64,000 bases of DNA from Methanotrichaceae archaeon (GTDB taxonomy: Archaea > Halobacteriota > Methanosarcinia > Methanotrichales > Methanotrichaceae). The notes beneath the pieces are model-generated. The model was given only the letters and a program-made list of their open reading frames with translations, ran no database searches and had not been told where the DNA came from. Location of the stretch: NCBI GenBank assembly GCA_963803145.1, contig CAWDLW010000012.1:96001-160000 (forward strand), given 5' to 3'. The position numbers were made by a program, and so were the translations under genes. Shown one piece after another: positions 24,285 through 42,012 of this stretch (within the stretch, counting starts at the first letter, position 1; every line of letters begins with the position of its first letter).

Positions 24285-24400
24285 TATACTTTCGCCAGAG
24301 TTTATATACCTATATGCAATCAAGCCATTAGCGAAAGCAACCCTCTAAAACGGGGCATAATAGCATAATATTTATCTCAAAGAGACCCTTAAAGGGGGCT
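24285..24400 (+). promoter_or_regulatory. CRISPR leader with TATA box
   Basis: Non-coding, AT-rich, TTTATATA at ~24301, adjacent to the first perfect repeat. Confidence 0.75.
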
Positions 24401-25805
24401 ATCGCAAAGCTGATCCCGATGAAAAGGGAACTGAAAGTCTGGCTTAGCCCCCTCAATAGTTACTATGATGCGTTTAATCGCAAAGCTGATCCCGATGAAA
24501 AGGGAACTGAAAGGAAAGTATATGAATATCCCGGTAGATCCATGCTTGCTTGTGAGAGATCGCAAAGCTGATCCCGATGAAAAGGGAACTGAAAGTCTAT
24601 CTGTTCAGGATCATAGATCTCTGATGATTGTTATCGCAAAGCTGATCCCGATGAAAAGGGAACTGAAAGCAAAATTAGACATGGTCATACAGAGAATCAG
24701 AGACGCAGATCGCAAAGCTGATCCCGATGAAAAGGGAACTGAAAGCAGTTCCGGAACTGCTTATACATATCGAATCTTTAGAGAATCGCAAAGCTGATCC
24801 CGATGAAAAGGGAACTGAAAGCTATTAGTCGCCCTATCTCAGCGTCCCTGGCCTCTGCAATCGCAAAGCTGATCCCGATGAAAAGGGAACTGAAAGATAT
24901 CGCAGCTATCAGAGTCGTCCTGGAGAGTTAATCATGGATCGCAAAGCTGATCCCGATGAAAAGGGAACTGAAAGCTCCCTATCCGAGAACTTAGCCTGGC
25001 AGGGAGGGCTATATCGCAAAGCTGATCCCGATGAAAAGGGAACTGAAAGTGTTGATGATCTGCCTTTGTATGACGGGCTTAGAGTCTTTGAATCGCAAAG
25101 CTGATCCCGATGAAAAGGGAACTGAAAGTTAAGAACTCCTCCGCATTCGAATGGACTGAAGGAAATATCGCAAAGCTGATCCCGATGAAAAGGGAACTGA
25201 AAGCCCTTTGTGATATCTCTTACCAGGACTTGGAAAAAGCATCGCAAAGCTGATCCCGATGAAAAGGGAACTGAAAGATGGGTCCAGAGACATTTACCAA
25301 CTCCCGCAGGAGTAAGATCGCAAAGCTGATCCCGATGAAAAGGGAACTGAAAGTGCTATCTTTCTCTTCTCTAGCGAAAATATTCAAGCCCATGATCGCA
25401 AAGCTGATCCCGATGAAAAGGGAACTGAAAGAGGAAGCCTCGGCAAGCGGAAAGGCCATAGGAGACGGCATCGCAAAGCTGATCCCGATGAAAAGGGAAC
25501 TGAAAGCATGGCTTGGTATGCTTCCTCAATAGTTTCCATCTTATCGCAAAGCTGATCCCGATGAAAAGGGAACTGAAAGTGTTTGACGTTGCGCCGTTCG
25601 GAGCTGATACTTCGACTATCGCAAAGCTGATCCCGATGAAAAGGGAACTGAAAGATGAACATGTTAGGCAGGGACAATTCGAATAGATGGTATATCGCAA
25701 AGCTGATCCCGATGAAAAGGGAACTGAAAGAGCCGATGAATGTCGCCGTCAGCGCCGTGCCCACGACAATCGCAAGACCGATCCCGTTGAAAAGGGAATT
25801 TATAA
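24401..25805 (+). CRISPR. CRISPR array: 18 perfect 37-bp repeats ATCGCAAAGCTGATCCCGATGAAAAGGGAACTGAAAG plus 1 degenerate terminal repeat; 18 spacers of 36-45 bp
   Basis: Repeats counted from 24401 to 25694; degenerate copy at 25769; 3' GAAAG end and leader give orientation. Confidence 0.98.
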
Positions 25806-26799: not shown

Positions 26800-26888
26800 A
26801 TTTTGCCTGGATAAGGCCCTGTAAACCCAAGTTTCTTCAATCGCCTGATAAGCTCCCGTCTTGATATGGGAAGGAGTTTAGTCTGCAA
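26800..26888 (-). pseudogene. hicA: Truncated hicA
   Basis: ISRRELIRRLKKLGFTGPYPG; similarity ends before the catalytic His. Confidence 0.75.
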
Positions 26889-27132
26889 TAGCTATTGGCT
26901 CCTTTGAGGATTCTATGGTATGGCCACCTATGGGCGGAATCGGATATCCCCATTGAAGCCGAGCTACTATCCATTCCTCGATAACCTCAATGAGATCTCT
27001 CCTGCATTCTTCAAGGGTATCACCAACAGCAATAACACCCTGTAGCCCTGGCACTATAGCCACATAAGAATCATCCTCAAGCGTGTCATATTTAGCACGC
27101 TCCAAGGCTGCTTGGATGTACTCGGAGAACAT
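26878..27132 (-). CDS. hicB: HicB-family antitoxin
   Basis: MFSEYIQAALERAKY...VPGLQGV; paralog of 1093 and 3169. Confidence 0.88.
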   Translation of the reverse strand: MFSEYIQAALERAKYDTLEDDSYVAIVPGLQGVIAVGDTLEECRRDLIEVIEEWIVARLQWGYPIPPIGGHTIESSKEPIAIAD

Positions 27133-27193
27133 ATCGTGATCAATTAAAGCCTTAAAAGGATTTAATACTTGCTGAAGTGAAGAACTATCTCGC

Positions 27194-27793
27194 TCAAACA
27201 AGGGCGCATTCACAATATCGTCTGTATTCACAATCCGTACATCTTCCTGGGTTTCTAGTTCCTAATGGTTCTGTCTCTTCCTGCACAATTCCACCTATTT
27301 CATGGATCATCTTCAGCGTGCGTCTACGTATTTCATCTGTGAAATCGATTCTGGCATTGATCTTGTCGCGACTGTAATGGACGTAGCCCCTCCGAACAAT
27401 GGTCCTGAAACAATCCTCCACCAATAGCGCATAAGCAGCAAGCTGGTACTTATGGTTCAAATGGACATTTCCAGCATTTGATAGGCCAAACTTGTAATCC
27501 ACAGGGACGTATTCTCGTTCAGTTTTTATCAGGTAGTCAAGGATGCCTTTAAGGCCCAGGGCGTTACTTTCAAGAGCAACGCGAAAAAGCTTCTCTGCTT
27601 GGTCGAGTTCAGAATCATAGAATATCGCTCCCTTTCTGCGGCGTTCCTTGGCTGTGATATCATCATGCTTCTCCTTGCCTGTCTCAAGCTTTTGGTCGGG
27701 TGGCTTGGGAACATGGAGCACATGGTCGAAGTAGATTATCTTGGGGCAGTAGAGATATTGCTTAACATCGCTGACTGTGATCATGCCCTTCAA
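27194..27793 (-). CDS. cas4: Cas4
   Basis: YCP, PVDYK, QLAAYA, CTDCEYRRYC. Confidence 0.95.
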   Translation of the reverse strand: MKGMITVSDVKQYLYCPKIIYFDHVLHVPKPPDQKLETGKEKHDDITAKERRRKGAIFYDSELDQAEKLFRVALESNALGLKGILDYLIKTEREYVPVDYKFGLSNAGNVHLNHKYQLAAYALLVEDCFRTIVRRGYVHYSRDKINARIDFTDEIRRRTLKMIHEIGGIVQEETEPLGTRNPGRCTDCEYRRYCECALV

Positions 27794-31068: not shown

Positions 31069-31169
31069 GGCTTAGGTGAATATCCCGCGCGAAGGGAACT
31101 GAAAGGTATTGTAATACAGCTTGGCAATGAGCATCGCAGAAGACATCCCGATGAAAAGGGAACTTGAAT
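31069..31169 (+). CRISPR. Solitary mini-array (degenerate repeat - 27-nt spacer - degenerate repeat), CreA/CreR-like RNA
   Basis: R1 ends AAGGGAACTGAAAG; R2 ATCGCAGAAGACATCCCGATGAAAAGGGAACTTGAAT; own TATA (ATTATAAATA ~31034) and T-rich terminator (~31186). Confidence 0.85.
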
Positions 31170-31269
31170 ATTAAAGTAGCAAAAACTTTTTATTTTTAAT
31201 CATTAATTACACGGGTTAAAATGGTTGAGTAGAAAGCCTTAAATTCTAACCCTGTATTATAAGTTATCT

Positions 31270-31419
31270 ATGCAATATACAGCGAAGAAGGATACAGGCC
31301 CGATAATGGGGTGGGATGATTGGGTTAACCCAAGACCCAACTGGATTTACCAAGCGAATATCATTCCCGTAAATGATGTAATCTTCTACGATTATGCCAT
31401 ACATCGAAATGGGAGGTAA
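31270..31419 (+). CDS. Unannotated 49-aa, probably leaderless ORF; candidate CRISPR-repressed toxin
   Basis: MQYTAKKDTGPIMGWDDWVNPRPNWIYQANIIPVNDVIFYDYAIHRNGR; BRE/TATA-like AGAAAGCCTTAAAT ~25 nt upstream. Confidence 0.45.
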   Translation: MQYTAKKDTGPIMGWDDWVNPRPNWIYQANIIPVNDVIFYDYAIHRNGR

Positions 31420-31510: not shown

Positions 31511-33920
31511 ATGGATGTGGGATCAGGGGTTAAGGACATTAGTGTAAATGAATATAAAAATTTTTTCCAAAAAGCTACAAAGTATGAACCATATCCGTAT
31601 CAAGAAAGTGTTTTTTCTAAAATTTCTAAAGGGGAATCTGTAGTTCTCCGTGCCCCAACAGGGTCAGGGAAAACCCTTGCAGTTTTGATGCCTTTCCTAT
31701 ATTATAGCAGCCTAAACGAGCGATTAATCGATAGAGTTATCTATGTGCTACCTATGAGAGCCCTGGCATTCGATCTCTGTAACTCAACAATAAAGACCGC
31801 CGAAAGCGCAGGGTTCAAGGTAATAAAAAATCCTGAAAAAAGGAGTAATCAAGAGAAAGAGATCTGCATCACAATACAAACAGGAGAACGTCAGAACGAC
31901 CACTTTTTTGAGGGCGATATAATCTTCACAACAATAGATCAGCTATTATCAAGTTATCTAACTATACCTGTATCTCTGCCTAACAGACTTGGCAATATCA
32001 ACATCGGTGCAATTATAGGTTCTCTGATTGTATTCGATGAAGTTCACTTAATGGAGTTTCAGCGGTCATTTCTGACCGCTACAGAAATGATGAATAGATT
32101 CAAGGGCCTAGCTCAGTTTTTCGTAATGACCGCTACTCTGACTGAGCCAACACAAAGATGGCTGACAAAGCAGATTGGCGCTGAATCAGTAACTTGCAGC
32201 ATAGATGAGCTTAAAAATGTCCGTGGTTATAAGGAGCGGAGCAGGATTTATTCATTTGAAAAAGAGCCTCTTTCATCAGATGCAGTAATTAAGAATCACA
32301 AGCAAAAGACATTGGTTTTATGCAACAGAGTAGACCGATCCCAAAAGATTTATCCGAACTGAAGGAGGCGCTTAAAGATAGAGATATAAAAGTAGCGCTT
32401 CTCCATAGCCGCTTTTTCAAGACAGATAGAAGTGTGATAGAGAAGAATCTGCAAGGATGGTTCGGCAAGGAATCAAAGAATCTAAATGCGATACTGGTAT
32501 CAACCCAGGTAGTTGAAGCAGGCATTGATATATCCTGCGATGTCATGCATACCGAATTGGCTCCCGCAAATTCTCTTATCCAACGTGCAGGACGATGTGC
32601 GAGATATTCAGGAACTGGTAAAGTATTCATTTATGAGCTTGAGGACCCCGCTAACTTCCTCCCTTATGCAAAGAATGAGGTCGATGCCACTCGAAAAGAA
32701 GTAAATGATTTTAAAGAAGAGAGCTTGATCCAGATTTAGAAAAGGATCTAGCTGAAAGGGTTCATGCCCCTCTTGAAGATTCAAGGCTAATCGATTCCAT
32801 ACAGAATCGCCGTGGAGAAGTAAACGAGGCGATGGATTACGGCCATTCCTCCAATATTCAAAAGCTAATAAGAGAGGTAGACAGCGTCAATATTCTACTT
32901 ACGCCAAATCCAGACGACGAAAACTTAGAAAATTCATGGCCAGAGATGCTATCTGTTCCTCGATCAACACTTTATAGGCTGAAAAAAGAGGGCAATGGTG
33001 ATTGGATCTTCAAAATCCCTATATTTAGCGATGATGAAGATTTTAAAGGCTCAAGATGGCAAGAGGTAGAATCAGTTAATGATATCTCTTGGTTGGCGGC
33101 ATTGAACCCGAGATTTGCGAAGTATTCGCAAGAGATTGGGTTGGTATTCGGTGAAGAAGGACAGAGATGTGTATCTTCTACCGAAAAAACCCCTCATGAA
33201 AGCTATAATTATTCATGCGAATCATATCTGGAACATACCAATCTTGTCATCGATGAAGCAAGATCATTGATCCCACTTTACGATAATGGAATAAAAAATC
33301 TAGCTGCTAAATTTCTGTCAGACAGCGGTTCCATTGAAAGAATGCTTCTCCTGGCCTGTGCTCTCCATGATGCTGGAAAATTAAGCACGCAATGGCAAAG
33401 CGCTATGCACACGTGGCAGAGCATCTCAGATCCGAATGCTAAACAATTTGTCAATGGATTACCCTTGGCACATACAACATACGATTCAAGAAGAGATTGG
33501 AGGAGAATGCAGGAACTAAAGATAAATAAAGGTCCACATGCCGCGGAAGGTGCCTATGCCGTTCTGCCAATGATAATCAAAGGATGCCAAACTCAGTTTG
33601 ATGAAAATATAGATTTAGATAATATAGCGATTGCCATTATGGCAGCTATCGCAAGGCACCACGGCCCTAGGACTTCCAACCTTCAACCATCCAAGCTAAT
33701 TCCCGAAGCGAAAAAGGTGCTATCTGATGCAATTGGGTCATTAGGGATGGACCTAGGAGAACTGGATATAAGCGATACGCCCGATCAAGATGAAATCGAT
33801 ACATTCAAGGATTATCTAAAAATAGATCAAATAGAGAAAGGGCTATTTTTATATTGGCTATTTGTAAGGGTCCTTCGGTTGGCTGATCAGAGAGCAACAT
33901 CTAAGATAGGGAGCCCATAA
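31511..33920 (+). CDS. cas3: Cas3 helicase with C-terminal HD nuclease (two apparent frameshifts)
   Basis: APTGSGKT, DEVH, MTAT, STQVVEAGIDI, QRAGRCAR, LHDAGK, ARHHG, LRLAD across three frames. Confidence 0.88.
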
Positions 33921-35629
33921 TGAGTAAAAAACTGTGTTTTGTGGTCCCAAAAGAGACCAATACATATGCAGATGTCCTCATGACCGTGGGTACATCAGAC
34001 CTTTTAAATGAGATTTATGGAGATGAGGCTCGGATCTCGATCAAAGATAAAGGCGATAGGTTTAACATCGATGTATCTTCCCAGGAAGGGTTAGAGCTGT
34101 TGGATAGATATACACGGCTCGATATTGGCTATCGTTTTGTAAAGCAGAAGGATAATGAGAAGATACCTCTCGGCATAGAGAACTACTACGATTATCCTGA
34201 AGAGAAGAAGAAAGATGACGCCTATTCTAAATTTGAGAAAACTACCGGGAAAAAGAAAACTAAAATTGCCAATAATATAGTTGATGCAGGATTGGATAAG
34301 CCTCCTGCTCCTGATCCCGCTCTTAAGCTTCATAAAATCCTAGCATCTATGCGCAAAGGCTGGAAGAGCGATAAGGAGTTCTACGAATATTTTATCAATA
34401 ATCGCGAAACGGTTACAAAACTAGCCATAAATAACCTAAAGTATTTGGCCGGTTCATGCTCAGAAAAATTAGCGAAGAAAAACTTAATAAGATCGTATCA
34501 GGATCTCAGGTTCTCCTGCCAATTGGCGGAAAGGGCATCAATAGGCCAAAACCGGATTCTACGGGGAAATCTGGCCTGCCTTCAGATTTCATTGATTGGT
34601 TTTCAGAATGGATGAAGTATCGTGGCATGTTTAAGTTCTTGCTTCCCTATAGAAGTGGAGATGATTTCAAATTTTACGTCATAATTCCCAAGGAAATATC
34701 ATTTAATGCCCTAATGGCAATACACAAAGATCTCTTCAATAAGAATTTATGGGGCGGGATAAAGCTAGATATTCAGGCAACTTTGGATCTAGCAAGAATC
34801 TTAATTATGCACTCAGAGGAATATGATAAAGAAAAAGGCTCTTTCAAGATGCTAAAGAGACGCCCCAACCAGATAATCGAAGGGTTATCCCAAGCCTATT
34901 TTAAGAGCCTAGGAACCGCCGCTGCTTTAATGAATTATTCTTTCTTAGGTCTACCTGGCTGGTTCACAATCGAGAATAACGAAACTGCACACGAGTTTAT
35001 AGAAATCATAAATGAGCACGAAAAATGCATTAGCGCTCTTCAGGACGATATATCTAGCGATATCCCTCTTCTTCAAGAATATAGGAGCCCCCTTTCCTCA
35101 GGGGATTATAGGTATTTCCTGGAATTTTTGTCTCTTTATGGAACCTATGTCATACAACGTAGAGAGAGAAATAAGTGGGCAATGCAATTCACAATCCAAA
35201 ACTTGAGGAGGATATTCATGGTGAAAAAAGATTACTCTGAGAGAATATCAAACGAGGGTTTTTTGATTTAGCGACTGCAATAAGGAAAGCTACCGTAAGC
35301 GCTCAATATCGCAAAGCTCAAGGAAATCGAGAGTGGGATATCAAATATGGTTTAGCTCAGGATTGGAAGCGAGTAGTGGAACAACCTGATAAGTTGGTCG
35401 TAGCTATCTCAGATTTCGTTCAGCAGTACAATGCCGAGAACGCAAGACATGAAGAGCAATCGAAAGAAAGGCGAAGCAATGTAACTACTAAAGACCTCAG
35501 TGAGGTTCTGGATTTAATAAAAAATTACGACTCGTACCTGGTAGGATGTTGCTTTTAGCCTATGGATATGCCAGAGAGGTTAGAGAAAAAGATGAACCAG
35601 CTGAGATAAAAGAAGGTGGAACCCAATGA
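33920..35629 (+). CDS. cas8: Cas8-like large subunit (three apparent frameshifts)
   Basis: Position between cas3 and cas7; overlapping stop/start codons; GKGINRPKPD motif. Confidence 0.72.
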
Positions 35630-36605
35630 AAATAAATTCTTTAAGTATATCTGGGCTTTTGACCCTCAATATGCATGCCCTTAATAATGAGGGCTCCGAG
35701 GGAAACTATCTCCAGACGAGGATGGTTGAAATAGTGGATGTAGATGGAGCAGCACATTCAGTAAATGCAATCTCTGGAGATATGTTTAAGCATATCCAAG
35801 CTGATCATTTGTATTCTATTGCTGGAGAAGAAGGTGTCTCTCTGCAATGGGTGCTCAGGCTTTAATCCTAATCGTATTAATATCGATAATAGATTATTAG
35901 ATGAGTATAAACAACGCAAGGAAGTAACTAACTCCGAGATCATCGATTGGGTTATTCGTAATTGTATTGGTGATGATGTCGAAGGAACGATGATAACTCA
36001 AAATATAGGACTTACTGCTGCAGATAAACCACAATCCCGCTCAATAGGCAGAAAATCTGTAGTTGAGTTTGGCTGGGCAGTTGGGGAGCCAGAAAAGACA
36101 AAAACCCGAATCTTATTTCCACGTCAAGTTCGATCAAACTGAAAGAGCTGGCGGTAGAGGCGATGATACTGGCGCAAATATAGGTCAGAACATTTTTCAT
36201 AGGCCCGCATCAAGCGGCAGGTATGCTATCGTTCTTAATACAGATCTATGTCGTATAGGATTCAATGATATTACACGTGAGTACTCAATAAATCTAGAAG
36301 AACGAAAGAAAAGGGCGATAGTCGTTTTAAAAAGTATATTAGCAACATTTCTGAAGCCAGAAGGGGCTCATAGAAACACACAGAATCCACACATAGTGAA
36401 TTTCCAGGGCTGCATTACCGCAAGTTCTACAATGCTTCCAGCTCCAACAGTAAGTGCTCTTAATGATAAGTATTTGGTAGAAATAGGAAATATTTGCAAT
36501 ACTTTAAATGAACTTAGCCCAAATTCAATCACAAAACGGGAGTTCAATAGCCTGCAAGAATTTGTATCTACGATTAAGGAAATAATAGATTCATTAGAGA
36601 TATGA
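35626..36605 (+). CDS. cas7: Cas7 (DevR/Csa2 family; two apparent frameshifts)
   Basis: MHALNNEG, NAISGDMFKH, RKSVVEFGW, IFHRPASSGRY. Confidence 0.88.
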
Positions 36606-38266: not shown

Positions 38267-38779
38267 ATGTGTAGTGTGTCACTATCAAAGGCTGAGCTAA
38301 ACGCCATTTTTCGAACGCTTGCAGAGCGTTATGCAACAGCAGCCAAAATGGTCCTCGGAGATCAACTAGTTTCAATAGCCCTCTACGGCTCAGTAGCCCG
38401 CAGCCAGGCAGGCCCATCCTCCGACATCGACCTCTTCGTCGTGCTTCAGGATGCTCCCTCAGGCATGCTGGCCAGACGTCGTCTTCTCCAGCCTGTGCGT
38501 GACTCCCTCACAGCGGAGCTGGAAGGTCTATGGGAACAAGGCATCTACACTGATTTCATCGAGGTGATCCGCTCTAGGACAGAAGTTCTGCAGTTCCATC
38601 CCCTCTATCTGGATATGTCGCAGGATGCCATCCTGCTCTATGATCGTGACCAATTTTTGCATACTCTGCTTGAAAAGGTCAGAGAGCGCCTGCAAAGGGC
38701 GGGCGCTGAGCGCTATGCTATGGGAAAACATTGGTACTGGGATATGAAACAGGCCTTTGTGTCTGGGGAGGTTGTGTGA
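38267..38779 (+). CDS. Minimal nucleotidyltransferase (MNT) antitoxin
   Basis: LYGSVAR...SDIDL. Confidence 0.9.
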   Translation: MCSVSLSKAELNAIFRTLAERYATAAKMVLGDQLVSIALYGSVARSQAGPSSDIDLFVVLQDAPSGMLARRRLLQPVRDSLTAELEGLWEQGIYTDFIEVIRSRTEVLQFHPLYLDMSQDAILLYDRDQFLHTLLEKVRERLQRAGAERYAMGKHWYWDMKQAFVSGEVV

Positions 38780-38781
38780 TC

Positions 38782-39213
38782 ATGAATCCCAATGCTCCTG
38801 CCAGGCGCATGGTATCAAGAGCTCTAATCATCATTGAGGAGGCAGAGTACCTACAGAGAAAACTTGCCTGGAACATGGTTGTGCGGCGCTCTCAGGAGGT
38901 TGTAGAGCTGGCGTTAAAAGCTGCTCTCCTCTGGGCGCAAATAGAAGTGCCTCGTATCCATGATGTTGGACCCATACTAAAGCAATACTCTGACCGCTAT
39001 CCAGAACCATTTCGAGGGCGTATATCCCATCTAGCATCCATCTCTCGAATGCTGAGAGCAGAGCGTGAGATCAGCTTTTACGGGGATGAACAGAGCGGTA
39101 TACCTCCCGAGAGCCTCTATACTCCAGAAGATGCAAAGGAAGCCCTATCAAAGGCGCACGAAGTGCTGAGTGCCTGCCATGAGCTTATAGGTAAGGATGC
39201 CCTGGATGACTGA
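38782..39213 (+). CDS. HEPN-domain protein
   Basis: QEVVELALKA, PRIHD, REISFY; adjacent to MNT. Confidence 0.88.
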   Translation: MNPNAPARRMVSRALIIIEEAEYLQRKLAWNMVVRRSQEVVELALKAALLWAQIEVPRIHDVGPILKQYSDRYPEPFRGRISHLASISRMLRAEREISFYGDEQSGIPPESLYTPEDAKEALSKAHEVLSACHELIGKDALDD

Positions 39214-39229
39214 TCTTACTTTCATATGT

Positions 39230-40204
39230 CTAAATCGATATCTCATAACTCCCATTTCCAAACGTAGCCATCTTGCCTATATGGATCAGCTTACCTAACT
39301 CAAGCAAGGCCATGATCTCTCTTGAGAACTCCCCGGAATAGACGATCTCCCCTCTGAAAAATGGTGCCAGGGGTTTCTTCTCAGATCCCTGATCGTGGAA
39401 TCTGCGTTCCATCCATATCTCTTCTGTCTTGGCGCTTGCAATATTCACTCCCCGGCATAGGCTCAGGATAGATAGAACCTCCTCATGGTCATAGAGCATT
39501 CCAGGGCCGTAAAACTCAGCCAGGGCATTTGCCCTGGAGATCAGCCTTCCCATGAGGCCTCTGAAGCTTGGAGCAGCAGTGAACCTGCCGTTCTCCTTGA
39601 TCTGTGTAGGAGTAATGAAATGCATTGATAATTTTCCGGAGTGCTCCTGTGATGCCTCAACCATTTCCCTATAGCTGAGGCAAATTGATCTGTTATAAAC
39701 GGTCTCTCCCTGGAAGATATTTGATCTGGCTCCATACCCTATGGAGTCCACCGCCTCTAAACAGAACTTCCCCTTGCCCTCTCTGAAGCCCAGACTCATT
39801 CCCTTTTCCCCCAGGTTTCTCAGAGCCAAAAGGAAGTAAGGCAGATAAGACATAGCCTTTCCAACGAGGGTGAACCCGAGGACCAGCCCGTCTCCTGGGC
39901 TGTATCTTCCGGGCTTCGGCGGCTCGAAGGCAAAGGGTCTCGGAATCTCCTGGTTCCTCAGCACCTTCGCCCCATCAAATGGACGAGAGTTATAAAAGAA
40001 ATCGTAAGCACATGATGCCCTTTGAAGGCATCCTGAGCAATCATTCCCATGGCCTCCATAGCTCAGGCAGACCATCTCTTTCAATCTGGCCCCAAAGCCG
40101 CTTCTAAGTACATTGCCTGACCAGGGAGGAAGATCTGCAGCTGTGCTGAATCTGATACTGGCCTCATATCTGGCCAGCTCTAGGTTTTTCAGTTCCCTTT
40201 TCAT
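39230..40204 (-). CDS. cas6: Cas6 endoribonuclease
   Basis: GNVLRSGFG, Cys cluster, FITP, C-terminal HIGKMATFGNG. Confidence 0.92.
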   Translation of the reverse strand: MKRELKNLELARYEASIRFSTAADLPPWSGNVLRSGFGARLKEMVCLSYGGHGNDCSGCLQRASCAYDFFYNSRPFDGAKVLRNQEIPRPFAFEPPKPGRYSPGDGLVLGFTLVGKAMSYLPYFLLALRNLGEKGMSLGFREGKGKFCLEAVDSIGYGARSNIFQGETVYNRSICLSYREMVEASQEHSGKLSMHFITPTQIKENGRFTAAPSFRGLMGRLISRANALAEFYGPGMLYDHEEVLSILSLCRGVNIASAKTEEIWMERRFHDQGSEKKPLAPFFRGEIVYSGEFSREIMALLELGKLIHIGKMATFGNGSYEISI

Positions 40205-40210
40205 CGGGAT
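40187..40210 (-). promoter_or_regulatory. 24-nt CRISPR repeat copy overlapping the cas6 start codon
   Basis: Minus strand ATCCCGATGAAAAGGGAACTGAAA is identical to repeat nt 13-36. Confidence 0.9.
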
Positions 40211-40375
40211 TCCCCATTATTTATTCAAAGTAAAGTCGAAGGCGCCAATGACACATCAGACAGCCATTGGATATTAGAATATAAGCTTTCGACATCACCT
40301 CTATGACTATATTAGCGAGTATTATCTATCAATAGTTAATCTTATCCCCTTCAACCTTATAGCATGAATTTTCCA

Positions 40376-40497
40376 AAACCTTCCCCCGAAGAGGGGTTAG
40401 GGGCAGCCCGCGCGGCGATTGAGCGCGCTAAGATAGCCGTTAGTTTTAGCCCCTGAAGAAAGTGTAGTCTCTTGAATTAGTTGCAGCCTCAAACGCA
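40376..40497. repeat. Inverted partner of the 29884-30009 repeat
   Basis: aaaccttcccccgaagaggggttagggg.agcccgc.cggcgattgag.gcgcta shared. Confidence 0.8.
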
Positions 40498-40767
40498 AAA
40501 TCAATTATGCCTTCCTACGAAAAATCCATAGAGCGTATCGGTTTTTCATACTTAGAGCACGACGCATAGAATCACGAGGATTTTGTGGTTGATCGTTACT
40601 GAACTCTCATCACCAAGGCACGAAAAATTTACTTTGAGGATTGAAGTTATTAGGCGATTAGTCGAAAGAAGAACTGGAGTAGGATTGCATAACTCGTTCA
40701 AGGCTCGCTTGACTGAGGATAATTGCCTGCAAACGTTTAAGCCTGAGCGCAGCGGAAATATATCAGG

Positions 40768-42012
40768 ATGTCATCTAAAGATATTCTCTCGATTGTTCAA
40801 TCCCACCTCTCCAGGTGTGCCTGCGACATGGGCCTGGATAAAAATGTCTTCGAGATTCTTCGCTCTCCGGCACGTGAGCTTCAAGTCTCTCTGCCGGTTC
40901 GCATGGATGACGGCAGCATCAAGGTTTTTCTGGGCTTCAGGGTTCAATATAACGATGCTCTGGGACCGACTAAAGGCGGAGTAAGATTTCATCCAGATCA
41001 GAGCATGGAAAGTGTCAGGGCTCTAGCAGCTCTCATGACCTGGAAGTGTGCCCTTCACGGCCTTCCCTTGGGCGGCTCCAAGGGCGGAGTCATATGCAAC
41101 CCCAAAGAGCTTTCCAAAGGGGAGTTTGAGCGTCTGAGCCGCTCCTACATCCGTGAGATCTATAGCTTCATTGGGCCTCGCAAAGATATCCCTGCGCCTG
41201 ATGTCAACACGAACGCTCAGGTCATGGCCTGGATGATGGATGAATACTCGAAGATTGCAGGCGAGAATGTCTTCGGCAGCGTGACTGGAAAGCCCGTTGT
41301 CCTCGGTGGGTCTGTGGGCAGAGAGGAGGCCACTGCACTCGGCGGCTGGTACACTATCCGTGAGGCTGCGAAGGCTTTGGGCCTGGAGCTCAAGGGTGCG
41401 AGTGTTGCTGTCCAGGGATATGGAAACGTCGGCTACCATGCAGCCAGGCTTGCTCAAAGATTTGGATGCAAAGTCGTTGCAGTCAGCGACAGCAAGGGCG
41501 GCATACTCTCAGAAAATGGGCTTGAACCTGAAAAGGTCTACAGGCATAAGGCGGAAAGAGGATCTGTTATAGGGTATCCTGGCACAAAGAACATTTCCGG
41601 CGAGGAGTTGTTAGAGCTTGATATGGATATCCTGATACCGGCTGCCCTGGAAGGTGCAATTACTGCGGATAATGCTCCGAATATCAAGGCTAAGATTATC
41701 GCAGAGATGGCCAACAGCCCGACAACGCCGGAGGCCGACGAGATTCTTTTCAATAAAGGCAAACACATCATACCGGATATACTATGCAACGGCGGAGGTG
41801 TAATTGTCTCATACTTCGAGATGGTGCAGAACTTCGATATGTGGTCGTGGGATGAGTCTGAGGTCAATCGCCTGCTGGATAAGAAGATGGTGCAGGCTTA
41901 TGATACGGTGCTGAAGGCTTCGAGGGAATACGACGTAGATATGAGGCAGGCGGCGTATGCTGTTGCTATTAAACGTTTAGTGGAGGCGATGAAGGCTAGA
42001 GGGTGGGTATAA
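40768..42012 (+). CDS. gdhA: Glutamate dehydrogenase
   Basis: GPTKGGVRFHP, GGSKGG, DIPAPD, VQGYGNVG. Confidence 0.95.
   Translation: MSSKDILSIVQSHLSRCACDMGLDKNVFEILRSPARELQVSLPVRMDDGSIKVFLGFRVQYNDALGPTKGGVRFHPDQSMESVRALAALMTWKCALHGLPLGGSKGGVICNPKELSKGEFERLSRSYIREIYSFIGPRKDIPAPDVNTNAQVMAWMMDEYSKIAGENVFGSVTGKPVVLGGSVGREEATALGGWYTIREAAKALGLELKGASVAVQGYGNVGYHAARLAQRFGCKVVAVSDSKGGILSENGLEPEKVYRHKAERGSVIGYPGTKNISGEELLELDMDILIPAALEGAITADNAPNIKAKIIAEMANSPTTPEADEILFNKGKHIIPDILCNGGGVIVSYFEMVQNFDMWSWDESEVNRLLDKKMVQAYDTVLKASREYDVDMRQAAYAVAIKRLVEAMKARGWV

What the first reader, a model, noticed from the sequence alone, without database searches (positions are those of the whole stretch)
40187..40216. cas6 start codon sits inside its own substrate: candidate Cas6 self-cleavage feedback loop
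Seen: on the minus strand cas6 begins GGGGA-ATCCCG[ATG]AAAAGGGAACTGAAAA. The 24 nt ATCCCGATGAAAAGGGAACTGAAA are identical to nt 13-36 of this locus's CRISPR repeat, 14 kb away from the array, so the N-terminus MKRELK is repeat-encoded. The copy keeps the TCCC/GGGA stem, with the ATG in the loop, and 7 of 8 handle nt; it drops the 5' 12 nt. Established: Cas6 enzymes cut repeats 8 nt from the 3' end, at the base of the stem. Inference: Cas6 would cut its own mRNA just after the start codon, separating RBS/AUG from the CDS, or block initiation by binding. That would give negative feedback titrated by pre-crRNA. I know of no description of this exact arrangement but cannot search the literature.
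Basis: partly seen in the sequence, partly recalled or inferred. Interest (0 to 1): 0.9.

Follow-up and report, generated by a model that had tools for sequence, protein, structure and literature searches.

The report
CRISPR repeat piece starting cas6
The only cas6 gene of this methanogen-related archaeon begins inside a captured piece of its own CRISPR repeat, an old and conserved arrangement that might let Cas6 control its own synthesis, though that is not shown.

Summary
Window 40187-40210 (-) matches nt 13-36 of the locus's 37-nt repeat at 24 of 24 positions. It supplies the spacer after a Shine-Dalgarno-like GGGGA, the ATG, and codons 2-6 of the genome's only detectable cas6.

It is not a recent accident. 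The same start (MKREL) occurs in all three members of one well-supported Cas6 clade (G000, G001, metagenome locus L039), whose fourfold sites are near saturation. All other relatives start M(x0-3)GDL without it.

The copies do not follow their own genomes' repeats (22/24 or 21/24 in G001, 17/24 in L039). The 8-nt handle is lost in L039 and the repeat's 5' segment is missing. In TtCas6A, a close solved structural relative, that segment is indispensable for binding.

In a different Cas6 clade, arrays sit directly upstream of cas6 in 8 of 17 non-MKREL loci, so a repeat relic is a plausible source.

Best reading (0.45): a repeat fragment domesticated as an ordinary translation start. Main rival (0.35): a low-affinity Cas6 operator or self-cleavage site. 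No RNA data were available. None of 20 other PF10040 cas6 loci with a nearby array has a repeat over the start codon.

The parts
40187..40210 (-). 24-nt copy of CRISPR repeat nt 13-36 (ATCCCGATGAAAAGGGAACTGAAA). It covers the SD-AUG spacer, the start codon and codons 2-6 of cas6.
   Evidence: 24/24 identity; unique outside the array in the window and in the 4.13-Mb assembly.
40211..40215 (-). Shine-Dalgarno-like GGGGA, 6 nt before the ATG. G001 has GGAGA and L039 has AGGTGA.
   Evidence: The 16S rRNA of this genome ends ...GGATCACCTCCT, so AGGTGA in L039 is a 6-nt perfect complement.
40194..40209 (-). Predicted stem-loop TCCC / GATGAAAA / GGGA, the same as in the array repeat, with the ATG (40204-40202) in the loop. 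A Cas6 cut at the usual place (8 nt from the repeat's 3' end) would fall between 40194 and 40193.
   Evidence: -6.1 kcal/mol, the same hairpin as in the array repeat and in L039. It is weak: 38 of 200 shuffles fold as well. The cut site is inferred from the general rule (review PMC5965381, passages).
39230..40204 (-). cas6, 324 aa, PF10040 type with a Cys-rich insert. It is the only Cas6 detected in the assembly.
40157..40178 (-). Second, stronger hairpin (GCTGGCC / AGATATGA / GGCCAGT) in codons 9-16. It is found only in the MKREL clade and is the most conserved stretch of the gene.
24401..25805 (+). CRISPR array: 18 perfect 37-nt repeats plus one degenerate distal repeat. The AT-rich leader lies at about 24300-24400, so the array is read on the + strand.
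31080..31169 (+). Two-repeat mini-array (psiR1 31080-31105, 27-nt spacer-like 31106-31132, psiR2 31133-31169) upstream of cas3'. This is a separate repeat-derived element of the same locus.

Best explanation
A fragment of a CRISPR repeat was captured once, at the root of a small Methanotrichaceae Cas6 clade. It now serves as the translation-initiation region of cas6: the 6-nt spacer after a Shine-Dalgarno sequence, the AUG (originally the ATG in the repeat's loop) and four extra codons (KREL).

It works as an ordinary leadered start. The extra residues form a flexible tail ahead of the first beta strand. The sequence is kept because it carries the SD spacing, the start codon and a favourable A-rich beginning, not because Cas6 acts on it.

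Shown: the identity, the single origin, the conservation, and the lack of tracking of own repeats. Inferred: the source (a repeat next to cas6) and the absence of any Cas6 action.
For: (1) Single origin. 3 of 83 homologues start MKREL (13 of the 83 start further inside, so their N-terminus cannot be compared). The three form one clade with support 99/98.

(2) No tracking of own repeats. The G001 copy matches its own arrays at 22/24 and 21/24. The L039 copy matches its own array at 17/24, with Leu as TTA where CTG would match, and the handle gone.

(3) The repeat's 5' 12 nt are not retained: 3/12 in G000. In TtCas6A, deleting nt 1-13 raised Kd about 900-fold and deleting nt 1-14 abolished binding (PMC3902920, section 17 read). 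Foldseek ranks the Thermus Cas6 structures among the closest solved relatives: 4c9d (TtCas6B) is top at E 1.4e-13 and 4c97/4c8z (TtCas6A) follow at about 1e-10.

(4) A source is at hand. In 8 of 17 non-MKREL loci an array lies directly upstream on the same strand, with its last repeat ending 62-135 nt before the ATG. One more locus keeps a solitary decayed repeat there. Another solitary decayed repeat lies elsewhere in this genome. Shmakov et al. report an excess of ectopic repeat copies in CRISPR-positive genomes (PMC10120712, passages).

(5) An SD (GGNGA) stands at -11..-7 in all three members and is complementary to this genome's 16S 3' end. The 16 other loci shown have pyrimidine-rich leaders there (my reading).

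(6) Residues 1-8 are unstructured in the AF2 model, and the first strand starts at residue 9.

(7) The hairpin is thermodynamically marginal (z -0.88).

(8) No repeat lies over the start codon in 20 other PF10040 cas6 loci that have an array in the fetched DNA.
Against: The initiation region is among the most conserved DNA of the gene, although fourfold sites between L039 and G000/G001 are only 38-40% identical. 18-nt windows with at least 17/18 identity occur at only three places among 924, and one is the repeat hairpin. The untranslated arm AATCCC is invariant in all three. The longest three-way invariant run in the gene is ATGAAAAGGGAA.

The KREL linker is identical at 69-72% protein identity. 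Linkers in sister clades are identical in only 15 of 75 pairs at 60-80% identity, and those pairs are not independent.

In the hairpin itself the copies differ from real repeats only at loop positions that also vary among real arrays of the family.

In G000/G001, codons 6-7 (AAA AAC) replace the GGC GAT that L039 and the outgroups have. This adds three more matches to the repeat.

The array-upstream arrangement belongs to a different Cas6 clade. The sister clade has no array upstream, so the relic origin is not demonstrated.
Confidence: 0.45

Rival explanations
1. Autogenous control by substrate mimicry. Free Cas6 binds the repeat-derived stem-loop that holds the AUG and sits 1 nt after the SD. 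It then either blocks initiation or cuts after 40194, removing the SD and AUG. Pre-crRNA repeats, the better ligand, compete for Cas6, so Cas6 synthesis follows the demand for processing.
For: The copy is in the sense orientation and is 24/24 identical to the cleavage-proximal part of the substrate. This Cas6 is the only one found in the genome, so it must process that repeat.

The stem, most of the loop and the unpaired A before the stem are invariant in 3 of 3 clade members across near-saturated silent divergence. Variation in the copies' hairpins is confined to loop positions that also vary among real arrays.

[quoted passage not shown] The wrap-around P. furiosus enzyme 3pkm ranks lower, at E 7.5e-8.

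A weaker site than the true substrate is what such a feedback needs. Ribonucleases and RNA-binding proteins that regulate their own mRNA are common (recalled: RNase III, RNase E, ribosomal proteins, MS2 coat protein).
Against: The copies do not co-vary with own repeats, and the handle is lost in L039. The 5' segment is missing, and it is indispensable for TtCas6A.

The hairpin is weak. The conservation extends over the whole initiation region (-18..+12) and a second, unrelated hairpin, so it is not specific to the Cas6 site.

The arrangement does not recur in 20 other loci. There is no expression or 5'-end data. No paper describing it was found.
Confidence: 0.35
2. A Cas6-independent RNA structure. 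The two conserved hairpins (the AUG-in-loop hairpin, and the GC-rich hairpin in codons 9-16) tune translation initiation or mRNA stability by themselves. The likeness to the repeat is only a trace of origin.
For: Both hairpins are predicted in G000 and L039. They are the two most conserved blocks of the gene. Hairpin 2 is clade-specific and unlike the repeat.
Against: No compensatory changes exist to prove either helix, because all stem positions are invariant. Hairpin 2 lies in conserved codons. The fold z-scores are modest: -1.84 and -1.66.
Confidence: 0.1
3. The 5' arm is not transcribed. The mRNA is leaderless or nearly so, as the promoter-like motif about 39 nt upstream of the ATG suggests for other family members. 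The hairpin then never forms, and only the ATG and codons matter.
For: Most relatives carry a conserved motif (A/T)CGCAAYATTTT(T/A) about 39 nt before the ATG and no SD (my reading). G000 has CTTTAC at a similar distance.
Against: An SD is conserved at -11..-7 in all three clade members, and it is perfect in L039. TATA-like sequences also lie about 76 nt upstream in all three (my reading). No promoter tool for archaea was available.
Confidence: 0.1

Closest known systems
Standalone CRISPR repeat-like regulatory elements (creA/CreR mini-arrays, crRNA-like RNAs): Shmakov et al. 2023, PMC10120712 (passages read); Liu et al. preprint 10.1101/2023.03.10.532045 (abstract in listing)
   Same: Repeat-derived sequence outside the array and inside a cas locus. 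Such sequences are enriched next to cas6 in type I-B, and they regulate cas expression.
   Different: Those are two-repeat mini-arrays in intergenic DNA. They give a guide RNA that acts with the effector complex on a promoter. Here there is one partial repeat inside the mRNA, over the start codon, with no spacer-like part. Any action would be by Cas6 itself on RNA. The published pipeline kept only repeat-like hits that do not overlap ORFs, so it would not have reported this one.
Autogenous control of RNA-binding proteins and ribonucleases through a mimic of their substrate in their own mRNA (MS2 coat protein operator holding the replicase start codon, ribosomal protein operons, ThrRS, RNase III and RNase E leaders). 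Recalled, not from a call.
   Same: A copy of the natural RNA ligand overlaps the ribosome-binding site or start codon of the protein's own message. A weaker affinity than for the main substrate would give titration.
   Different: No binding or cleavage is shown here. The mimic lacks a segment that a related enzyme (TtCas6A) needs.
Solitary repeat units / RNA anti-CRISPRs of phages (Camara-Wilpert et al. 2023, PMC10651486; abstract in listing)
   Same: Single repeat mimics outside arrays that are thought to engage Cas proteins.
   Different: Those are non-coding RNAs on mobile elements that inhibit immunity. This one is chromosomal, lies within the cas6 message, and is inherited vertically in a Cas6 clade.
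Array-then-cas6 arrangement in related Methanotrichaceae loci
   Same: A Cas6 site lies on the same strand just 5' of cas6. It is the likely raw material for the fusion.
   Different: There the last repeat ends 62-135 nt before the ATG and cas6 keeps its own promoter-like motif and start (MGDL...). Here the repeat overlaps the start, and no array lies upstream.

Membership tests
Cas6 endoribonuclease (PF10040 / PF27225 type) | Match to the family profile above its curated cut-off | tested here: met
   PF10040 57.7 bits against a cut-off of 25. Precomputed PF27225+PF10040 on the protein and its homologues. TIGR01877 is below its cut-off.
Cas6 endoribonuclease (PF10040 / PF27225 type) | Cas6 fold (two RRM-like domains) like solved Cas6 enzymes | tested here: met
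   AF2 model with pLDDT 88.3. Foldseek top hits are 4c9d, 6fjw, 6dd5 and 4ill, with E 1e-13 to 6e-12.
Cas6 endoribonuclease (PF10040 / PF27225 type) | C-terminal glycine-rich loop (motif recalled from the literature) | tested here: met
   H308, G310, K311, F315, G316 and G318 are invariant in 30 aligned homologues.
Cas6 endoribonuclease (PF10040 / PF27225 type) | Cuts the repeat 8 nt from its 3' end | not testable with these tools
   No assay and no RNA reads.
Cas6 substrate (CRISPR repeat RNA) | Cleavage-proximal stem-loop in sense orientation | tested here: met
   24/24 identity and the same predicted hairpin as the array repeat. Kept in G001 and L039.
Cas6 substrate (CRISPR repeat RNA) | 8-nt handle after the cut site | tested here: inconclusive
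   7/8 in G000, 6/8 in G001, 2/8 in L039 (my count).
Cas6 substrate (CRISPR repeat RNA) | Single-stranded 5' segment of the repeat (needed by TtCas6A and by P. furiosus Cas6) | tested here: not met
   3/12 identity in G000 and G001, and 6/12 in L039 (my count). The requirement is taken from PMC3902920 and PMC5965381.
Cas6 substrate (CRISPR repeat RNA) | Follows the genome's own repeat when the repeat changes | tested here: not met
   G001 22/24 and 21/24; L039 17/24. One of the differing positions is fixed by the AUG.
creA/CreR-type mini-array | Two repeat-like units flanking a spacer-like sequence | tested here: not met
   At the cas6 start there is one unit. The upstream TCGAAAGCTTAT at about -88 resembles only repeat nt 3-14 and has no handle. 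The separate element at 31080-31169 does meet this feature.
Autogenous translational operator (substrate mimic) | Mimic overlaps the SD or start codon of the protein's own mRNA | tested here: met
Autogenous translational operator (substrate mimic) | The protein binds the operator and lowers its own synthesis | not testable with these tools
   No RNA-protein modelling or expression data were available.

The most novel reading that the evidence does not exclude
Cas6 measures its own free pool. A low-affinity copy of the repeat's stem-loop, placed over the SD spacer and AUG of cas6, is bound (and perhaps cut after 40194) only when pre-crRNA repeats are not occupying the enzyme. Cas6 synthesis is thereby coupled to the processing load. 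This would be a natural case of substrate-mimicry feedback inside CRISPR-Cas, and it acts through Cas6 on RNA rather than through a guide RNA on a promoter.
Probability: 0.35. Interest if true: 0.75.

Novelty: new variant of a known kind. Interest (0 to 1): 0.5.

Why it matters
Known repeat-derived regulators of cas genes are mini-arrays that make guide-like RNAs. None of my five literature searches found a repeat fragment that supplies, or regulates through, the start codon of a cas gene.

If Cas6 acts on it, this would add a new and simple feedback layer, enzyme-level titration by pre-crRNA. It could be tested with one protein and two short RNAs.

If Cas6 does not act on it, it is still a clean, datable case of a CRISPR repeat exapted into a ribosome-binding region and coding sequence.

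It also exposes a blind spot. The largest survey of repeat-like elements kept only hits that do not overlap ORFs.

Tried and rejected
- **RNA evidence:** The look-up of sequencing runs (kind rna) on 39230-40400 listed no RNA holder.
- **L039 record:** searching the whole record behind L039 for its repeat failed because the record is not held. TRF on the locus was used instead.
- **More clade members:** the family-wide genome search (105 genomes), the metagenome scan and the genome-contig scan gave only G000, G001 and L039.
- **Mini-array reading of the cas6 site:** rejected. The upstream repeat-like stretch lacks a handle, and 12-mer matches to the repeat's 5' end outside the array are at chance level (7 found, about 7 expected).
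- **Second independent case:** a 12-nt repeat match 40-52 nt upstream of cas6 in L053 is not conserved in its relative L068 and lies in what looks like the end of the upstream gene. Rejected.
- **Rfam:** nothing relevant in 39900-40800.
- **PDB by sequence:** no hit with the single protein. The profile gave only weak hits to Cas6 domains.
- **Alternative SD-masking helix (GGGG with UCCC):** possible in G000 but not kept in G001 or L039 (my reading). Dropped.
- **Extended pairing of GA-AUCC with the 16S 3' end:** considered as another reason for the conservation. It needs a bulge and leaves too short a spacing, so it remains only a remark.

Full report
**Observation.** On the minus strand the sequence reads TAATGGGGA-ATCCCG-ATG-AAA-AGG-GAA-CTG-AAA-AAC. 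The array at 24401-25805 (+) has 18 perfect 37-nt repeats, ATCGCAAAGCTGATCCCGATGAAAAGGGAACTGAAAG, plus a degenerate distal one, and an AT-rich leader on its low-coordinate side. The 24-mer at 40187-40210 (-) equals repeat nt 13-36 with no mismatch. With up to 3 mismatches it occurs 20 times in the window: 18 array copies, one copy in a mini-array at 31145, and this one. None was expected in 100 shuffles. The whole 4.13-Mb assembly holds no further copy.

**The gene and locus.** ORF 39230-40204 (-) is a Cas6 of the PF10040 type (E 2e-15). Its AF2 model (pLDDT 88.3) resembles solved Cas6 enzymes. It is the only Cas6 found in the assembly: PF01881 gave none and PF10040 gave one. The ATG at 40204 is the only usable start, because a TAA lies five codons upstream and the next ATG is residue 44.

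The surrounding locus is type I-A-like:
- csa1, cas4, cas2 and cas1 lie on the minus strand next to the array.
- cas3', cas3'' (HD), two unassigned ORFs, cas7/csa2 and one more unassigned ORF lie on the plus strand.
- An MNT-HEPN pair follows, and then cas6, which is convergent with these genes.

Names that public sources give to close homologues place the organism in Methanotrichaceae.

**Distribution.** Of 83 homologous proteins, only three begin MKREL: the window's own, G001 (87% identical) and P0003 (68-69% identical). Thirteen others start further inside, so their N-terminus cannot be compared. The rest begin M(x0-3)GDL.... I found no further member in 105 genomes of the family, in the metagenome scan, which returned the DNA of P0003 as L039, or in the genome-contig scan. 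In a maximum-likelihood tree the three form one clade (99/98) that is sister (91/91) to an MxxGDLEF clade. The feature therefore arose once.

**State in the three members.** The start regions read as follows:

| Member | Start region |
|---|---|
| G000 | GGGGA ATCCCG ATG AAA AGG GAA CTG AAA AAC |
| G001 | GGAGA ATCCCG ATG AAA AGG GAA TTG AAA AAC |
| L039 | GGTGA ATCCCA ATG AAA AGG GAA TTA GGC GAT |

L039 keeps the GGC GAT (Gly-Asp) that follows the ATG in outgroups. The core event thus looks like the replacement of the old start by repeat nt 13-33.

The copies do not follow their own arrays:
- G001's arrays read ATCCCTATG...ACTGAAA and ATCCCCAGG...ACTGAAA, giving 22/24 and 21/24 identity to its copy.
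- L039's array repeat is ATCGCAAGGGCTATCCCGAGGAAAAGGGAACTGAAAG, giving 17/24, with most of the handle lost (2/8 kept).

Two points soften this. One differing loop base is locked by the AUG. The other hairpin difference lies at a loop position that also varies among real arrays of the family.

**Conservation.** Fourfold-degenerate sites are 38% (92 sites) and 40% (94 sites) identical between L039 and G000/G001, which is close to saturation. They are 66% identical between G000 and G001. Against that background the initiation region stands out:
- In 924 windows of 18 nt, at least 17/18 identity between G000 and L039 occurs at only three places: the repeat hairpin (-8..-6), a second hairpin (+24..+29) and +198..+200.
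- The longest three-way invariant run in the gene is ATGAAAAGGGAA, preceded by the invariant GAATCCC.
- The four-residue KREL linker is identical in all three. In sister clades only 15 of 75 pairs at 60-80% identity share their much shorter linker, and those pairs are not independent.

This argues that the region is functional. However, the conserved block runs from about -18 to +12 and includes the SD, so it is not specific evidence for a Cas6 site. All stem positions are invariant, so there is no covariation to prove the helix. The hairpin itself is weak: -6.1 kcal/mol, and 38 of 200 shuffles fold as well.

**Is the 5' arm in the mRNA?** All three members have an SD-like GGNGA at -11..-7. 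L039's AGGTGA is a perfect complement of this genome's 16S 3' end ...GGATCACCTCCT. SD 5-mers precede 5 of 26 long ORFs in the window, against 1 of 26 at a control position. Other clades lack an SD and carry a promoter-like motif about 39 nt before the ATG (my reading). A leadered message is therefore likely but unproven.

**Origin.** In 8 of the 17 loci outside the clade, a CRISPR array lies directly upstream of cas6 on the same strand, and its last repeat ends 62-135 nt before the ATG. One further locus keeps a solitary decayed repeat there. A deletion that fused such a terminal repeat in frame to cas6 would give the present state. But those eight loci belong to a different Cas6 clade, and the sister clade has no upstream array. 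In the three members, housekeeping genes lie upstream: gdh, divergently, in G000, where G001 has a similarly placed divergent 420-aa ORF that I did not scan, and an eIF-2B family gene in L039. The relic origin is therefore plausible but not shown. A weak upstream resemblance to repeat nt 3-14 at about -88 is near chance level.

**Would Cas6 recognise it?** The closest solved structures are T. thermophilus TtCas6B/A (4c9d, 4c8z), S. thermophilus Cas6 (6fjw), the Cas6 domain of Cas6-RT-Cas1 (6dd5) and S. solfataricus Cas6 (4ill). The wrap-around P. furiosus enzyme ranks lower. [quoted passage not shown] For TtCas6A, however, removing nt 1-13 raised Kd about 900-fold and removing nt 1-14 abolished binding (PMC3902920, section 17 read). 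P. furiosus Cas6 binds the first 10 nt of its repeat (PMC5965381, passages). The cas6 copy keeps only one repeat base before the stem. By analogy it would be at best a weak ligand. That weakens the self-cleavage idea, although a weak site is what a titration loop would use. These relatives share only about 12-17% sequence identity with this Cas6, so the analogy is loose.

**Survey for recurrence.** PF10040 matched 53 places in 46 of 401 genomes sampled from the phylum. I fetched up to +-10 kb around all 53. Twenty loci held an array. Comparing each repeat with the region from -200 to the Cas6 domain gave these results:
- No repeat-like segment over a start codon.
- One solitary decayed repeat upstream, in a Methanotrichaceae outgroup.
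- One unconserved 12-mer, and two 10-mers inside coding sequence.
- No hits for the reversed-repeat controls.

The arrangement is thus rare.

**Literature.** Five full-text searches found no natural case of Cas6 acting on its own message, and no repeat fragment forming a cas start codon. Shmakov et al. mapped only repeat-like hits that do not overlap ORFs and report enrichment near cas6 in type I-B as mini-arrays. Supplements were closed, so tables that might list ORF-overlapping hits were not seen.

**Verdict.** The sequence fact is solid. It is old, of single origin, and lies in a constrained translation start. The most likely reading (0.45) is a domesticated repeat fragment that works as an ordinary SD-spacer-AUG start with a disordered four-residue tail. 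The Cas6 feedback reading remains open at about 0.35. It is favoured by the placement and the conservation. It is disfavoured by the missing 5' segment, the lack of tracking of own repeats, the lost handle in L039 and the lack of recurrence. Two smaller rivals, a Cas6-independent RNA structure and a leaderless message, take about 0.1 each.

Noticed in passing
window 31080-31169 (+), candidate target 31254-31280 (+): A two-repeat mini-array lies upstream of cas3': psiR1 with an intact ACTGAAAG handle, a 27-nt spacer-like sequence, and psiR2. Its best partial match in the window lies 120 nt downstream in the same intergenic region. The match has a seed of 9 with position 6 ignored, 17/27 identity overall, and 5' flank CCT. 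It looks like a creA/CreR-type regulator, but seeds of 8 occur several times by chance.
   Followed up: partly
window 31511-32739, 33920-35271, 35765-36605: cas3' (283 + 139 aa), a cas8-like pair (231 + 271 aa, no family hit) and cas7/csa2 (125 + 180 aa) are each split into overlapping frames. The interference genes are either decaying or the assembly has indel errors. cas6, cas1, cas2, cas4 and csa1 are intact.
   Followed up: partly
window 40157-40178 (-): A 7-bp GC-rich hairpin with an 8-nt loop lies in codons 9-16 of cas6. It is present only in the MKREL clade and is the most conserved stretch of the gene (22/23 between G000 and L039).
   Followed up: partly
L023, L024, L026, L029, L032, L033, L036, L016 (upstream of cas6): In one Methanotrichaceae Cas6 clade the array runs straight into cas6 on the same strand, with the last repeat 62-135 nt before the ATG. 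A conserved promoter-like motif about 39 nt before the ATG begins ATCGCAA, the same seven bases that begin the repeat.
   Followed up: partly
G000:C44:19500-19530 (-) = L098 about 2003-2031: A solitary degenerate repeat copy (about 23 of 29 bases) lies in non-coding DNA far from the CRISPR locus. Again an ATG from the repeat loop opens a short frame of 38 codons (my reading).
   Followed up: partly
G001:C78:382-630 and L039:5111-6347: In both other clade members an array lies just downstream of cas6 on the opposite strand. In G001 it ends about 16 nt from the stop codon. Read-through of the array would therefore be antisense to cas6.
   Followed up: no
window 38267-39213 (+), 26878-27231 (-); L039:4325-5038 (-): An MNT-HEPN pair lies between the effector genes and cas6, and a HicB/UPF0150-like gene lies among the adaptation genes. 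In L039 an ADP-ribosyltransferase-like ORF (PF03496) lies between cas6 and the array.
   Followed up: no
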